A stretch of DNA of 64,000 nt from a virus. Its lineage: Duplodnaviria; Caudoviricetes. The notes under the pieces are model-generated. The model was given only the letters and a program-made list of their open reading frames with translations, was not told the origin of the DNA and did not search any database. Of the stretch, positions 303 through 19,546 are shown piece after piece. Position 1 is the stretch's first letter; each line of letters starts with the position of its first letter. The stretch covers positions 32,001-96,000 of the IMG/VR virus record IMGVR_UViG_3300021387_000199. One strand, given 5' to 3'. The position numbers and the translations under genes were made by a program.

Positions 303-986
303 TTACCCGAGGAAATCCATTAAACACGTTCCCGTAATATCATCAATCATCTTAATCTTCTGGATTTCAGGATAATTTTCAGCCTTGATCATGGACGTAG
401 CTGTAACCTGAATGATTGAACGAACAGTACGGTTACCCGTTCTTAAAAGCTCTTCGAACGTCTTGTCTGGAAGACGGAACAGCTCCTCGGGATAATCAAC
501 CCCGATGAACGGTTTATAGGCTTCAGCAAGGTCTTTCCCCCACTGAGCAACAAGATCCTGATCCTGAATAAGGACAAGAGGCTCCTTGACAATGTCTTTG
601 GTTCTCCAGGAAAGAAGATCGCCGTAGCGCACATCCTCCTCGTCGCCCCAACCTTCCCATGTATATACACGGCTATGGTCGCTAGAATCCATAATCAACT
701 TCCACGGTGTAACTGATACACACGTAATCATGTCTTCAGACGAAAACTTCTTCGTAGGTCTCTTTGTTTCAGGTTTCTTAATAGGATTCTTCTTCGTCTC
801 CTCAATAGCTTCAGACATCTGCTTTGGTTCAGGCTTTTTCTAAAAATGCTTACGAGCAATAGCAATCATGTCATCGGACGCCACCTGAAGATGAGAAGAA
901 ACCTTATTAAATCCAGCCTCATTCAAATAAGCGATCAAATCTTTATTCTTAACGCCTAGTTCTTTTGATAATTCATTAATTTTCAT
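303..986 (-). CDS. Virion-module protein with an N-terminal IF2_N-like domain, 227 aa, 1 in-frame TAG (840-842)
   Basis: ATG at 986 (MKINELSKELGVKNKDLIAYLNEAGF) is in frame with ORF 303..818 through one TAG; ends TAA. Confidence 0.7.
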
Positions 987-1021
987 TGTCCATTTTTCCC
1001 CTTTTTCTTATCAGAATAAGA

Positions 1022-3260
1022 TCAGCCCGTGATCTTAATCTCACCAAACAGCTGATTAACAACGGTTCCGATACCTTCCTGGTACTGGATCTCACCGTCA
1101 ACTGTCATATCCTTCTTACCACCGTCCGTACCAGTCTCATAGTAAGCAACATCTCCCTCATTAATGAGCTTGATCGGCTTATCAGAGTTCTTCGGCATGA
1201 TCAGAATCTTATTGTTGTCGCTCTGAGAGAACACATTGGTGCGAGTTCCGGCCTTGTTAACCCTCTTCAGCGGAAGAAGATCATAACCTTCCCAGCTACC
1301 GAGCATACCATTCTCATGGCGCTCCTGCTTCATCTCATTCGACCAAATATTGTAACTAACGGTATTCTCAAGCTTCAGAAGAGCAGCCTTAGTACCGACA
1401 AGCGTTACATCCTAACCAGTCACGGAAGTGATGAATTCACAATGCTCAACAATCGCCTGACGAGTATTCTCGGAAACAGCAGTCTGAAGAATCATATCTG
1501 TCGGCAGAGCCTGATCAACAGCCATAAACGCTGTGAACAGAGCATCCCAACGATTCGCTTCGATGGAACGATACATACGATCAACCATCTCCGCAAAATC
1601 AATACGACCAAGCATCATCAGCTCGAAGTCAGCATAAACCTTGATGACATACCAGCTAGTCTCAATTGAGAAAGCCTTACCCGGCTTAAGAGCCTGTCTA
1701 ACACCTTCTGTTTAACTTATATTATTCCCTATTAATAAACTTCCAATGATAACCACCACAAGTATGACGTTCACCTTTACACACCTTAAGAATACAACTG
1801 CCGTCCAGAGATAATTCTTTTCCAGCCGCCGTAGCGTCCTGATATGTCTTTCCTGATTCCACGCAAAGAACAGGAGTAGTATTTCTTCTCCAAGAAACTG
1901 TGCCCATTTTCTTCTCGCTCATTTTCCTTTTGGATTCTTCAGTGTGGTGTCTGCCATACATTCCATTATTTTCACCCATTATCTTCGCTTTTATAGAGGG
2001 ATCAGCCCATTGTTTAAGAGCATTTTCGCTCTGTATTTTCCTTCTATTAGGATCGGAATAGGTCTTTTTAATTGACACACTCATCTTATTCTTAAGTTCA
2101 TCAGAAAAAGAGTTGAAATCCTGACCTCCAGATTTAAGGTTGTATCCTTTATCTCTATCCAATGTGCCATATTTCTCAATGTAATATCTTTCTTTATCAT
2201 TGAGCTATGTTTCGCCACATTCTTCTAAGATATAAAATAAGAACATTTCCTATCCATACTTTATCCACGACTTCTGAAGATAATCGTTATGATGTAAACC
2301 CATATTTAATTCGGAGATGTGTCTTCTCCATCGATCAGCTATGTTTGTAGACTGACCAATATACTTTTTATTATTTACAGCATTTTCAATACAATATATG
2401 CCGCTAATCACTTTTTCCATATTAATCACTTTCTTTATTAGGGAATAATTTTATAGGGTCGCTACACCCCGTCGAGTTAATAACTCCACAAGCTTTTACT
2501 TGTGAGTAGACTATATCTTCCTCTATAAAAGAGGCGCACCATTTCCGATTAAGGGAATTTCACCCGCCCGCTTGGGCCGTACTCCTGTTGTGGTTTCCCA
2601 CCTATGGGATAGTCGTTGAACCTTCCTCTATTCGAGGCTTGGCTGCTGATTTCCTATTCTCAAAAGCACTTAGGATTTAACCTTATGCTATCCAACTGAT
2701 TCTTTCTACTTTCGTAACCATCACACTTAGGCATATTTCATCCTTATGTTGTGGTTCAGTTGGCTTTAAGGGTTTCCAGCAGTTAAATGCGTATTTTTTC
2801 ATGCCGCTCTTGCGACACGGACGCTATTAGACAAGTTAACGTCATGGTGATTTCCAGCAAACTTAGACACTGTAAGCAGAGAATCATCAGTTACCCAGAA
2901 CTGATTCAGATCGCCATCAGCGATGTTGATCTGCTCAACATACTCCTGGAAGAACGCATTGTTGGCATTCCAACCAGAGGTCATGCGGTCAACAAGAACA
3001 CGCTCTACGAGAGAGTAAACTTCCGGGGCGTGAAGCCGACGAGCCTGTCTGCGCTCCATAGCACTAGCAGTCTTATAATCCTGAAGACCAAGGATAGCGT
3101 TAAACTGCTTTGTAATAGCCTTCTGCATCTCTTCGCGAGTATACTGAGAGTAATCACGGTTCGCAGCCTGATCAAGCATACTTTCGAAAGCAATAACGTT
3201 GTCAAGTTTTCCTTCAAACTGATTCATAACATGATCAGAAAAAGTCTTAAAAAGTTTCAT
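1022..3260 (-). CDS. Major capsid protein (SPbeta YonB-like), spliced: exon 1 3260-2839, exon 2 1703-1022; 367 aa; 1 in-frame TAG (1412-1414)
   Basis: Exons (422+682 nt) join in frame as ...FAGNHHDV/VRQALKPG...; position after protease and head decoration genes; ends TGA. Confidence 0.85.
1704..2838 (-). mobile_element. Group I intron (1135 nt) in the major capsid gene
   Basis: Core elements AACTGCTGGAAAC, AATCAGCAG, GTTCAACGACTA, AAGATATAGTCT; P1 GACGU/GCGUC with U-G at the 5' splice site; P10 UUGUCUAAUA pairs with exon 2 start UGUUAGACAG; terminal G at 1704. Confidence 0.92.
1722..2420 (-). CDS. Intron-encoded GIY-YIG homing endonuclease with NUMOD-type C-terminal motifs, 232 aa, 2 in-frame TAG (2250, 2205)
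   Basis: MEKVISGIYCIENAVNNKKYIGQS (GIY-YIG) in frame with ORF 1722..2162; GENNGMYGRHHTEESKRKMS and TCGGYHW motifs. Confidence 0.9.
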
Positions 3261-3288
3261 AACTTATTCCTCCTTTCTTCAAGATTTA

Positions 3289-17998: not shown

Positions 17999-18014
17999 AA
18001 GACCGCCCCCTTTC

Positions 18015-18275
18015 TCAGTAGCAAGTCGCCGCGAACCGCGGACAACCCTCATCATCGCTTACCAGATCTTTATACCGGGAAGATCCCTGATTCATACAGT
18101 AGTAAACAGAACCTGATTCCCGGCAGTATAAGCAGGAGCCGCAGCGGCGCTCTGTTGCCGGTACTGTCTTTCTTTGTTTTCCATAAGTCTTGATCGACTT
18201 TTTTATGTCTTCCAGTTCGTCGGAATGTAAAACGTTGTTCCTGAACTCGTAAGGTCTAATAGTAAATCCGTCCGT
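18015..18275 (-). CDS. Small Cys-containing hypothetical protein, probable ACG start
   Basis: AAAGGAGG SD, then ACG and 86 open codons (CGSCLYC); ends TGA. Confidence 0.6.
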   Translation of the reverse strand, partial: TDGFTIRPYEFRNNVLHSDELEDIKKSIKTYGKQRKTVPATERRCGSCLYCRESGSVYYCMNQGSSRYKDLVSDDEGCPRFAATCY

Positions 18276-18292
18276 GGCGACCCCTCCTTTCT

Positions 18293-19546
18293 TTACATAG
18301 TGTCGGCTATCCGGGCGATCTCAGATCTGTAAATCGTCTTCAGTTCAACTTCCCCGTAAAGAGAGTGTCCTCTGAAAACCTCAGACATTCGCCTCATACC
18401 GTTATTGCTGCCGGAATATTCTGCGCGGTCAACCTGAGTGGTATAGTCACCGTCAATGATTACGACAGCTTCCTCGCCGACTCTCTGAAGGGCCAGTTTC
18501 ATCAGATTGACTGAAAAGTTCTGAGCTTCTGTGATATATACCCCGACGGGGCCGTACTTAGTCGTGTCAAAGCCGCGAATGTCCGCCATTGGTATCAGTT
18601 CGAGTTGTCCGTCATCAATCATACGCTCTACGCCTATACGGTCGCCGATTTTCGCGATGAGCATCTGGCCAACCTGAGAATCCAGAAGCTTCTCCTAACG
18701 TGTCCCGGGGTAAAATCCGAGTTGACAAGCGTCCCCTACTGCTACGGGGTTCGCGAAGACTATAATCTTGTCGATTTTTCCTTTTTCCAGAAGATAGAAT
18801 AAATAACCGAGCGCTATAAATGACTTTCCCGTACCAGCGTGGCCCTTTAACATGGTGACCTGATTAGTAGACAGCGAATCAAGAGCCATCTGTTGATAAA
18901 TATCCCCGGCATAGGGCCTAACCGTTCCGTAAAACTTCGACTTGATCGCCGGAATTTTAACCCGTACATAGGAATTTCCGTCCCACTTCACTGCCTCGAC
19001 GACATCATTAGCCCCGCGAATAACCGCGTATTGGTTAATGGCTAACGAGAGCGAGTTCTCGGTCGGGCGCTCATAAATCGCGGCGATTTGCTCGTCGGTT
19101 AGATCCTCGTCTATCCAACCGGTATAAGCCTCTTTTTTGTCGTCTTCTTGCGGTTTACAGGGCAATTCAAACGACTTTTCCGCCATAATCCGACAGAGGG
19201 TGTCATCTGTCCAGAACTGAATCTGTTTATAATCGTCAGGCCCGTCAGCGTAATAATCAAAAGCTGTCTGAAGGATTCGATTGTCCGGGGTATCTTCAAC
19301 GCCTCTGATTTCAAGACACTGTTTATCCCCTATCTGCCAGACCTGAACGTGAATCCTATCCAGATTCCGCTCAATCCAGCGGGCAGCTTCCCGCGCCTTG
19401 AACCGTACCTACTCGGTCTTGTTCCGATTTTCTTTGATCTTATCAAGTTCCTGAATCGTAACAGAAGAGATGGCGATAGGTTCATCTAACTCCCGGCAGT
19501 GGTTCATGATGGCACAGGTGTCCAGAAAGTACCTTATCCCCGCCAT
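18293..19546 (-). CDS. phoH: PIN-PhoH (PhoH2-type) protein, 417 aa, 2 in-frame TAG (19409, 18695)
   Basis: N-terminal PIN motifs (FLDTC, ELD, DNRIL, TDD); GHAGTGKS, RGFD, TEAQN and GD..QVD PhoH motifs. Confidence 0.88.

What the first reader, a model, noticed from the sequence alone, without database searches (positions are those of the whole stretch)
303..19546. Amber (TAG) appears reassigned to glutamate, a phage genetic code distinct from code 15
Seen in sequence: 46 in-frame TAGs in 12 minus-strand genes (RNAP 14, terminase 10, pre-terminase gene 6, protease 4, portal, phosphoesterase, PhoH and homing endonuclease 2 each, four genes 1 each). I found no in-frame TAA/TGA and no frameshift, all true gene ends checked are TAA or TGA, and the flanking bases vary, so this is not a fixed read-through context. 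Evidence for Glu: an internal repeat (NLNE*N vs NLNEEN) and TAG at positions where recalled family motifs have Glu: FNV*LLD, RKI*SLI, LVA*IYD, ALK*ELT, KKG*NTW, ICK*CAR, AVT*EAA, NAN*VNHYE, ET*VKNTLWDG, RLI*TAL, PG*SDEEL, SA*NLSLPDP. Established: recoded phages are known to use TAG=Gln or TGA=Trp, and Glu-reading stops are known in peritrich ciliates and Blastocrithidia. I know of no TAG=Glu phage, but I cannot search to confirm novelty.
Basis: partly seen in the sequence, partly recalled or inferred. Interest (0 to 1): 0.97.

Follow-up and report, generated by a model that had tools for sequence, protein, structure and literature searches.

The report
Phage reads TAG as glutamate
This gut phage uses the stop codon TAG 46 times inside 12 late genes at places where relatives have glutamate, not the glutamine reported for every other recoded phage. 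It also carries a glutamate-type tRNA that reads TAG, so current pipelines mistranslate it.

Summary
Twelve minus-strand late genes (window 303-19546) hold 46 in-frame TAG and no in-frame TAA or TGA, and all twelve end in TAA or TGA.

At 29 TAG columns of the RNA polymerase, terminase and YonG-like genes, aligned with standard-code homologues, Glu is the best residue. Asp is 11.6 nats worse and Gln 36 nats worse.

Close recoded relatives carry GAA or GAG where the window has TAG. Public protein sets show "Q" there only because those genes were called with TAG=Gln.

Two phages of the same family (L029, L099) place TAG at conserved Gln columns, which is an internal positive control. At strongly conserved columns the Glu-type genomes have 64 TAGs on Glu and 2 on Gln. 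The Gln-type genomes have 2 and 16 (p = 3e-13).

Outside the window, one TAG sits at the catalytic Glu of the endolysin's GH73 domain. A tRNA(CUA) there has a 4-nt variable loop and A73, which only tRNA-Glu shows among 32 Lachnospiraceae tRNAs sampled.

I found no paper reporting TAG=Glu in a phage. The scan noted the same code earlier in other phage genomes. No peptide evidence exists, and an excess of TAGs at Asp columns is unexplained.

The parts
15251..18055 (-). YonO-like single-subunit RNA polymerase gene (934 aa) with 14 in-frame TAG. T of each codon at 17947, 17926, 17854, 17779, 17236, 16948, 16705, 16438, 16009, 15988, 15868, 15751, 15454, 15400.
   Evidence: It matches phrog_8308 over residues 40-929 and has 1,658 homologues. 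Plurality residue at the TAG columns: E at 5, D at 4 (one of these a near tie, D47/E41), and N, L, S, K and T at one each. It carries a DFDSD motif. Neighbouring genes carry YonJ_N and YonG_N domains.
7376..9517 (-). Large terminase gene with 10 in-frame TAG (9394, 9298, 9217, 8791, 8479, 8263, 7735, 7696, 7609, 7576).
   Evidence: It matches phrog_2 and Terminase_6N. Eight of the 10 TAG columns are E or E/D in 120 homologues; one is Q/E/K and one is mostly gaps.
9426..10721 (-). YonG_N-like gene upstream of the terminase (431 aa) with 6 in-frame TAG (10622, 10499, 10184, 9809, 9623, 9581).
   Evidence: Homologues carry PF27269. In clean homologues the TAG columns read E 40/60, L/E, D 58/60, E 59/60, D 43/60 and E 60/60.
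3995..5614 (-). Scaffold/protease-like gene (539 aa, phrog_3313) with 4 in-frame TAG (5476, 5386, 5278, 4789). It includes the repeat CTG AAC GAA TAG AAT / CTG AAC GAA GAA AAT.
   Evidence: Two TAG columns are E-plurality (45 and 81 of 144) and two are uninformative. The repeat is seen in the DNA.
5815..7368 (-). Portal gene (517 aa) with 2 in-frame TAG (7017, 6318).
   Evidence: It matches phrog_2739 at 5.9e-92. The only standard-code homologues reached are 25-31% identical, and their columns (R, M) are uninformative.
11316..12494 (-). YonJ-like metallophosphoesterase/exonuclease gene with 2 in-frame TAG (12467, 12383).
   Evidence: The TAG columns read E6/Q4 and F4/E3/K2 in 11 standard-code relatives.
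12730..13392 (-). ClpP-type prohead protease gene with 1 in-frame TAG (13317).
   Evidence: It matches PF00574 at 2.9e-23. The TAG column is E in 7 of 11 relatives.
13408..13842 (-). Small gene (144 aa) with 1 in-frame TAG (13755).
   Evidence: No standard-code homologue was reached.
18293..19546 (-). PIN-PhoH gene with 2 in-frame TAG (19411, 18697).
   Evidence: It matches PF02562 and PF13638. The TAG columns read E 8/9 and L5/E2.
1722..2429 (-). GIY-YIG/NUMOD homing endonuclease gene with 2 in-frame TAG (2252, 2207). It lies inside a group I intron.
   Evidence: No standard-code orthologue was reached, so the residue at its TAGs was not tested.
1022..1618 (-). 3' exon of a capsid-module gene (phrog_4088 positions 143-332) with 1 in-frame TAG (1414). 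The 5' exon is 2799-3260.
303..986 (-). Gene with an IF2_N-like N-terminus (227 aa, phrog_5329) and 1 in-frame TAG (842).
   Evidence: The residue at its TAG was not tested.
10743..10815 (-). Phage tRNA-Gln(UUG), kept at this locus in the Glu-type relatives. In the TAG=Gln relative L099 a Gln-type tRNA(CUA) sits in the corresponding position. The window's own tRNA(CUA) lies outside the window at G000:C1:118774-118846 (+).

Best explanation
The phage uses a genetic code in which TAG means glutamate, while TAA and TGA remain stops.

Shown: the late, minus-strand genes need TAG to be read as sense. They include the YonO-like RNA polymerase, the packaging genes, the head genes and the lysin. TAG occupies positions that are Glu in standard-code relatives and GAA/GAG in close relatives. 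The plus-strand early and middle genes are nearly free of internal TAG. The genome encodes one canonical tRNA with anticodon CUA, co-oriented with those TAG-free genes.

Inferred: the tRNA(CUA) is transcribed early and charged with Glu by the host GluRS. The basis is that it shares the 4-nt variable loop, the longer D loop and A73 with the host-type tRNA-Glu, and, by manual parse, U11-A24 and U13.G22 of the E. coli tRNA-Glu identity set. Its C1-G72 pair and A73 should keep GlnRS and GatCAB away.

Also inferred: once the tRNA accumulates, the TAG-laden late genes, above all the late RNA polymerase, become translatable. The code switch would then gate the late and lytic programme, as proposed for TAG=Gln phages.
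For: (1) Anatomy. There are 46 in-frame TAG and no in-frame TAA/TGA, and the fused products are full length.

(2) Deep alignments. An empirical likelihood over 29 TAG columns gives E best, D -11.6 nats and Q -36 nats. The mean residue make-up of TAG columns is E 0.47 and Q 0.03. True Glu codons give E 0.51; true Gln codons give Q 0.61.

(3) Close relatives. The database proteins of close relatives translate only 'with_TAG=Q'. At the DNA level, 200 TAG-bearing columns show GAA 281, GAG 157, GAY 122 and CAR 81 in the other genomes, and the CAR share is highest at L029's TAG columns.

(4) Positive control. L029 and L099 belong to the same phage family (TerL 62-75% identical) and put TAG on conserved Gln. 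At columns that are at least 80% conserved, Glu-type genomes have 64 TAGs at E and 2 at Q. Gln-type genomes have 2 and 16 (Fisher p = 3.5e-13). The window alone has 9 at E and 0 at Q.

(5) Functional site. In the lysin at G000:C1:24763-26403, a TAG aligns with the Glu of FlgJ in 2ZYC. That is the position where entry 3K3T has Ala.

(6) Another enzyme. Three of the 5 TAGs in a cysteine-desulfurase-like gene align with E of the closest solved structure.

(7) The tRNA. The tRNA(CUA) scores 50.5 bits on RF00005. Its 4-nt variable loop plus A73 occur together only in tRNA-Glu among 32 distinct tRNAs of a Lachnospiraceae genome that carries a related prophage. The suppressor of the TAG=Gln relative has G73, A1.C72 and the short D loop of the phage tRNA-Gln, and it sits in the tRNA-Gln locus.
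Against: - There is no peptide or aminoacylation evidence. The residue is inferred from comparison only.
- TAG falls on Asp-conserved columns more often than ordinary Glu codons do: 5 D to 9 E, against 4 D to 53 E (p = 0.012).
- The anticodon CUA lacks U34 and C36. From memory, these are GluRS determinants in E. coli, where tRNA-Glu-derived amber suppressors are charged with Gln.
- Likely hosts (Lachnospiraceae) do have GlnRS.
- The window's suppressor has C33 instead of the near-universal U33.
- No phage GluRS or release factor was found in the contig, which is an estimated 83% complete.
- The host itself is inferred only from prophage relatives.
- Read-level support could not be checked.
Confidence: 0.85

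Rival explanations
1. TAG is read as glutamine (ordinary phage code 15), and the Glu columns simply tolerate Gln.
For: Every recoded phage described so far is reported as TAG=Gln. The hosts have GlnRS. One or two TAG columns are Gln-plurality, for example TerL 595 with Q45/E39/K32.
Against: Gln is 36 nats worse than Glu. No window TAG lies at any of the 45 Gln-conserved columns, although CAG-to-TAG would then be a silent transition. Sister phages L029 and L099 do show that pattern. Gln at the GH73 Glu that aligns with the residue replaced by Ala in 3K3T would be expected to inactivate that domain (general knowledge, not tested here). The suppressor lacks the G73 and weak 1-72 pair of the phage and host tRNA-Gln.
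Confidence: 0.04
2. TAG is read as aspartate, or ambiguously as Glu/Asp or a mixture of residues.
For: Asp-conserved columns are over-represented at TAG sites. For the partial relative L002, D and E fit equally well over 10 columns.
Against: Asp is 11.6 nats worse in deep alignments and 23.8 nats worse among close relatives. TAG differs strongly from true Asp codons, 9E:5D against 8E:93D (p = 5e-6). The host tRNA-Asp body does not resemble the suppressor: it ranks below tRNA-Glu in overall identity to it, although its own features were not cleanly parsed.
Confidence: 0.08
3. The TAGs are real stops: decayed genes, assembly or sequencing errors, or low-level read-through of a defective phage.
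For: No read-level check was possible. The contig is a linear fragment.
Against: The genes hold only TAG in frame, never TAA or TGA, against hundreds in the other frames. The same TAG sites recur in independent assemblies. Dozens of related contigs show the same usage. A cognate tRNA(CUA) is present.
Confidence: 0.01

Closest known systems
Stop-codon-recoded gut phages using NCBI table 15 (TAG=Gln): crAss-like, Lak, Agate, Garnet, Topaz and phAss-1 (Borges et al. preprint 10.1101/2021.08.26.457843; Peters et al. PMC9523058; Babkin et al. PMC10607447)
   Same: TAG is a sense codon concentrated in late, structural and lysis genes. Early genes use the standard code. The phage encodes its own tRNA(CUA) and no dedicated synthetase. 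The hosts use the standard code.
   Different: The residue is Glu, not Gln. The suppressor has a tRNA-Glu-type body, not a tRNA-Gln-type one. Borges et al. state that only TAG to Gln and TGA to Trp were seen in such phages. No close GenBank phage relative exists; the best TerL hit is 25% identical.
Sister lineages of the same phage family that read TAG as Gln (L029 = IMGVR_UViG_3300021387_001019; L099 = IMGVR_UViG_3300021255_002052)
   Same: They share the gene set and gene order. TerL is 62-75% identical and portal 71%. TAG recoding affects the same late genes.
   Different: Their TAGs sit on conserved Gln columns. L099's suppressor is Gln-type and occupies the tRNA-Gln locus.
Peritrich ciliate and Blastocrithidia nuclear codes (NCBI tables 30 and 31)
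   Same: UAG is decoded as glutamate.
   Different: These are eukaryotic nuclear codes in which UAA is also Glu. Here TAA is the commonest stop, and the change belongs to a virus of standard-code bacteria.
Bacillus prophage SPbeta late-gene module (YonO RNA polymerase, YonJ, YonG)
   Same: The family has a YonO-like polymerase with a DFDSD motif and neighbouring genes with YonJ_N and YonG_N domains.
   Different: As far as I know, SPbeta uses the standard code. Here the polymerase gene is the most TAG-loaded gene in the window.

Membership tests
Suppressor-tRNA-based stop-codon recoding in phages | In-frame stops of one kind only, in otherwise intact conserved genes | tested here: met
   There are 46 TAG, 0 TAA and 0 TGA in frame, and the products match homologues over their full length.
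Suppressor-tRNA-based stop-codon recoding in phages | Phage-encoded tRNA cognate to the recoded stop | tested here: met
   A tRNA(CUA) lies at G000:C1:118774-118846. ARAGORN finds it and it scores 50.5 bits on RF00005.
Suppressor-tRNA-based stop-codon recoding in phages | Recoding confined to late/structural genes, with early genes in the standard code | tested here: met
   The minus-strand blocks carry the TAGs. In most plus-strand ORFs of 100 aa or more that contain a TAG, it lies within the first 50 codons of the extended ORF, upstream of the likely start; three are ambiguous (X at 71/143, 97/341 and 41/223).
NCBI genetic code 15 (TAG=Gln) | TAG aligns with glutamine | tested here: not met
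   Gln is 36 nats worse than Glu. None of the window's TAGs at conserved columns is at a Gln column.
NCBI genetic codes 30/31 (TAA and TAG = Glu) | TAA is also a sense codon | tested here: not met
   There is no in-frame TAA, and 8 of the 12 genes end in TAA.
tRNA-Glu-type body of the suppressor | 4-nt variable loop (no position 47) together with A73, as in the host-type tRNA-Glu | tested here: met
   Among 32 distinct tRNAs of a Lachnospiraceae genome, only tRNA-Glu has this pair of features. The window's suppressor shares it by the automatic parse. L001's suppressor shares it by manual parse and the alignment; the automatic parse failed on it.
tRNA-Glu-type body of the suppressor | Augmented D helix U11-A24 and U13.G22..A46 (E. 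coli GluRS identity set, recalled from Sekine et al.) | tested here: inconclusive
   The window's suppressor has U11-A24, U13.G22 and A46 by manual parse of the sequence. L001's has A11-U24 and A13.A22. The host tRNA-Glu has U11-A24 and A13.A22. The identity rules for clostridial GluRS are not known to me.
tRNA-Glu-type body of the suppressor | Charged with Glu by GluRS | not testable with these tools
   This needs an aminoacylation assay or mass spectrometry.

The most novel reading that the evidence does not exclude
A genetic code not described for any bacterium or bacterial virus: TAG = Glu, with TAA and TGA as stops. It would be run by a phage amber suppressor that the host GluRS charges. 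It would have arisen beside TAG=Gln in sister lineages of one Lachnospiraceae-associated phage family, so the same stop codon was captured at least twice by different tRNA families.
Probability: 0.8. Interest if true: 0.9.

Novelty: new variant of a known kind. Interest (0 to 1): 0.88.

Why it matters
1. It would add a new entry to the list of natural genetic codes. It would also break the working rule that recoded phages only use TAG=Gln or TGA=Trp, a rule that has been explained by the natural sloppiness of GlnRS and TrpRS.

2. Gene callers that offer only code 15 write Gln for about one residue in a hundred in these late genes, catalytic glutamates included. The public protein sets already hold such sequences.

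3. A natural amber suppressor that is a GluRS substrate despite a CUA anticodon would be of direct use for work on tRNA identity and on genetic-code engineering.

4. Sister lineages with TAG=Glu and TAG=Gln give a rare natural pair for studying how a stop codon is captured.

Tried and rejected
- The idea that Glu stays on a Gln-type suppressor because the host lacks GlnRS is not supported. Four Lachnospiraceae genomes with related prophages have both glnS and gatB.
- No phage-encoded GluRS/GlnRS or class-I release factor was found in the 134-kb contig.
- BLAST of the suppressor tRNA against annotated phage and E. coli genomes matched only T-arm fragments or nothing.
- An exact scan of IMG/VR for its anticodon arm found no second copy.
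- An Rfam scan of the rest of the genome found no theta ribozyme or other RNA beside the suppressor.
- Portal homologues from standard-code relatives were too distant (25-31% identical) to say anything about its two TAGs.
- On the TerL tree, most Glu-type sequences form one supported clade of 10, but others lie outside it and the root sits on a very long branch. I draw no conclusion on the number or order of origins.
- phAss-1 is not a close relative by TerL.
- The giant ORF has no Pfam match.
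Full report
WHAT IS THERE. The window is bases 32001-96000 of a 134,294-base linear phage contig, estimated to be 83% complete. Under the standard code the minus strand of window 1-20000 is a litter of short ORFs. With TAG read through, they fuse into long genes.

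- YonO-like RNA polymerase, 15251-18055: 14
- large terminase, 7376-9517: 10
- YonG_N-like gene, 9426-10721: 6
- scaffold/protease-like gene, 3995-5614: 4
- portal, YonJ-like phosphoesterase, PIN-PhoH and a GIY-YIG endonuclease: 2 each
- ClpP and three small genes: 1 each

In frame there are 46 TAG and no TAA or TGA in 4,979 codons. The other two frames hold 222 and 454 TAA+TGA. All twelve genes end in TAA or TGA. The products match their families and homologues over their whole length. The bases around TAG vary like those around GAG. So TAG is a sense codon here.

Across the whole contig, the TAGs lie in two minus-strand blocks, bases 1-51546 and 126712-133558. The plus-strand genes between them have almost none.

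WHICH AMINO ACID. I aligned the three most TAG-rich proteins with 120 database homologues each.

For the polymerase, the plurality residue at the 14 TAG columns is E at five, D at four (one a near tie, D47/E41), and N, L, S, K and T at one each. For the terminase, eight of ten columns are E or E/D, one is Q/E/K and one is mostly gaps. For the YonG-like protein the columns are E, L/E, D, E, D and E.

'Q' appears at these columns only in the closest relatives, where it alternates with E from one sequence to the next. Those proteins translate from their DNA only 'with_TAG=Q'. Their Q is therefore a gene-caller's rendering of TAG.

After removing such sequences, I built an empirical substitution model from the same alignments. 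Over 29 TAG columns it gives E as best, D at -11.6 nats and Q at -36 nats. The first run, over 23 columns, gave D -9.2 and Q -31.5.

The smaller genes agree where homologues could be reached:
- PhoH: E 8/9
- ClpP: E 7/11
- phosphoesterase: E6/Q4
- scaffold-like gene: E 45 and E 81 of 144

CODON-LEVEL CHECK. In eight recoded genomes for which I hold DNA, 200 alignment columns carry at least one TAG. The other genomes have there GAA 281, GAG 157, GAT/GAC 122 and CAA/CAG 81.

Taken genome by genome, the CAA/CAG partners are most frequent at the TAG columns of L029. Using only the sense codons of close relatives, the window's TAG columns again fit E best, with D at -23.8 and Q at -38.3.

INTERNAL POSITIVE CONTROL. 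L029 and L099 are phages of the same family. TerL is 62% and 75% identical to the window's, portal is 71% identical in L099, and the gene order is the same. Their TAGs lie on conserved Gln columns, where the window has CAA or CAG.

At columns that are at least 80% conserved in clean homologues (1,467 columns, of which 90 are E and 45 are Q), the seven Glu-type genomes have 64 TAGs at E and 2 at Q. The two Gln-type genomes have 2 and 16 (Fisher p = 3.5e-13). The window alone has 9 at E, 0 at Q, 5 at D and 1 at N. So the method sees TAG=Gln where it exists, and the window's lineage is different.

FUNCTIONAL SITES. Its sequence VIAQACL-TAG-NGYG aligns with LVAQAALETGWG of FlgJ (2ZYC). The TAG falls on the Glu that is Ala in entry 3K3T. 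I take this to be the catalytic acid; the identification of 3K3T as the mutant is from memory.

Three of the five TAGs in a cysteine-desulfurase-like gene align with E of the nearest solved structure.

In the scaffold-like gene, the repeat CTG AAC GAA TAG AAT recurs as CTG AAC GAA GAA AAT. This is weak but consistent evidence.

THE tRNA. ARAGORN finds one tRNA(CUA) in the genome, at C1:118774-118846 on the plus strand. That is outside the window and among the TAG-free genes. It is a canonical cloverleaf scoring 50.5 bits.

Relatives of the polymerase sit as prophages in Lachnospiraceae isolates and MAGs, including Eisenbergiella and Lachnospiraceae bacterium CE91-St56. From the complete CE91-St56 genome I took 32 distinct tRNAs. 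Among them, only tRNA-Glu combines a 4-nt variable loop with A73, as the window's suppressor does by the automatic parse. The suppressor of relative L001 shows the same pair by manual parse and in the alignment; the automatic parse failed on it.

Both suppressors also share the longer D loop of tRNA-Glu, and both start with C1-G72. By contrast, host and phage tRNA-Gln have a 5-nt variable loop, a shorter D loop, G73 and a weak first pair.

The suppressor of the TAG=Gln phage L099 has G73, A1.C72 and the short D loop. It sits where the Glu-type phages keep tRNA-Gln(UUG), which is window 10743-10815. So the two readings of TAG go with two suppressor families.

MECHANISM. What is shown: TAG is sense, it stands at Glu positions, a cognate tRNA exists, and that tRNA has a tRNA-Glu-like body.

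What is inferred: the host GluRS charges the tRNA. C1-G72 and A73 keep GlnRS away; the identity rules are recalled from the E. coli literature. The accumulating suppressor then unlocks the late genes, first of all the RNA polymerase with its 14 TAGs, as proposed for code-15 phages.

The simpler idea that the host has no GlnRS fails, because four related host genomes have both glnS and gatB. No phage synthetase or release factor was found. How RF1 is outcompeted is unknown.

WHAT DOES NOT FIT. TAG lies on Asp-conserved columns more often than ordinary Glu codons do: 5 to 9, against 4 to 53 (p = 0.012). Examples are YonO residues 44 and 690 and preT residue 180.

Either TAG has been recruited wherever an acidic residue is tolerated, or decoding is not purely Glu. 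Only peptides can tell. The window's suppressor has C33 where tRNAs almost always have U33, whereas L001's has U33.

COMPARISON AND NOVELTY. The system works like the known recoded gut phages. It is not code 15, and it is not code 30 or 31, because TAA is the commonest stop here.

Six full-text searches found no report of TAG=Glu in a phage or bacterium. Borges et al. say that only TAG to Gln and TGA to Trp were observed, and phAss-1 was assigned Gln.

Earlier reports of this same scan describe TAG=Glu in other rumen and gut phages. So the scan has seen this code on other DNA, and the lineage is not a single oddity. Dozens of contigs from many samples show the same signature.

On the TerL tree, most Glu-type sequences form one supported clade, with a few outside it. 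The root is unreliable, so I do not infer an order of events.

VERDICT. This is a new variant of a known kind. My confidence that TAG is read mainly as Glu is about 0.85.

Noticed in passing
window 20428-21607 (-): A cluster of about seven tRNA-like genes. Five share the acceptor stem CGGAACG/CGTTCCG-A, and most have abnormal anticodon arms: 6-nt loops, an ACUA tetraloop and a 50-nt insert. They score 39-55 bits on RF00005, but ARAGORN gives several of them two-base 'anticodons'. None looks able to decode TAG. Relatives L032 and L033 have similar odd tRNAs.
   Followed up: partly
window 1022-3260 (-): A capsid-module gene (phrog_4088) is split. The 5' exon is 2799-3260 (profile positions 18-115) and the 3' exon is 1022-1618 (profile positions 143-332). 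Between them lie a group I intron (Rfam 58.8 bits, 2487-2824) and a GIY-YIG/NUMOD homing endonuclease (1722-2429) that itself carries two TAG codons.
   Followed up: partly
G000:C1:2248-22683 (-), upstream of the window: A single open frame of 6,811 codons with 83 in-frame TAG. The 4,999 residues I scanned have no Pfam match.
   Followed up: partly
window 44064-44717 and 54041-54532 (+): Two plus-strand ORFs end in TAG, each followed by an in-frame TAA/TGA 5-6 codons later. They may be early genes that terminate at TAG before the suppressor appears, with a back-up stop afterwards.
   Followed up: no
L001/L003/L098 (IMGVR_UViG_3300012007_000008): The terminase of this 175-kb relative is 99% identical to the window's and shares its TAGs. 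Its polymerase is only 81% identical and its PhoH 59%, which suggests a recent exchange of the packaging module between Glu-type phages.
   Followed up: no
L099:3745-3836: The Gln-type amber suppressor of the TAG=Gln relative carries a 23-nt insert in its variable region, which is unusual for a tRNA-Gln-like body.
   Followed up: no
G000:C1:127036-128184 (-): A phage-encoded cysteine desulfurase (IscS/NifS/DndA-like, E = 4e-86 to solved structures) lies in the late block and carries 5 TAG.
   Followed up: partly
L014, L017, L019-L024, L027-L029: In several standard-code relatives the polymerase match spans 3.0-4.0 kb instead of 2.7 kb and splits into two or three ORF pieces, which suggests inteins or introns in the gene. 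One terminase homologue (P0144, 1,031 aa) carries a homing-endonuclease domain (PF05204).
   Followed up: no
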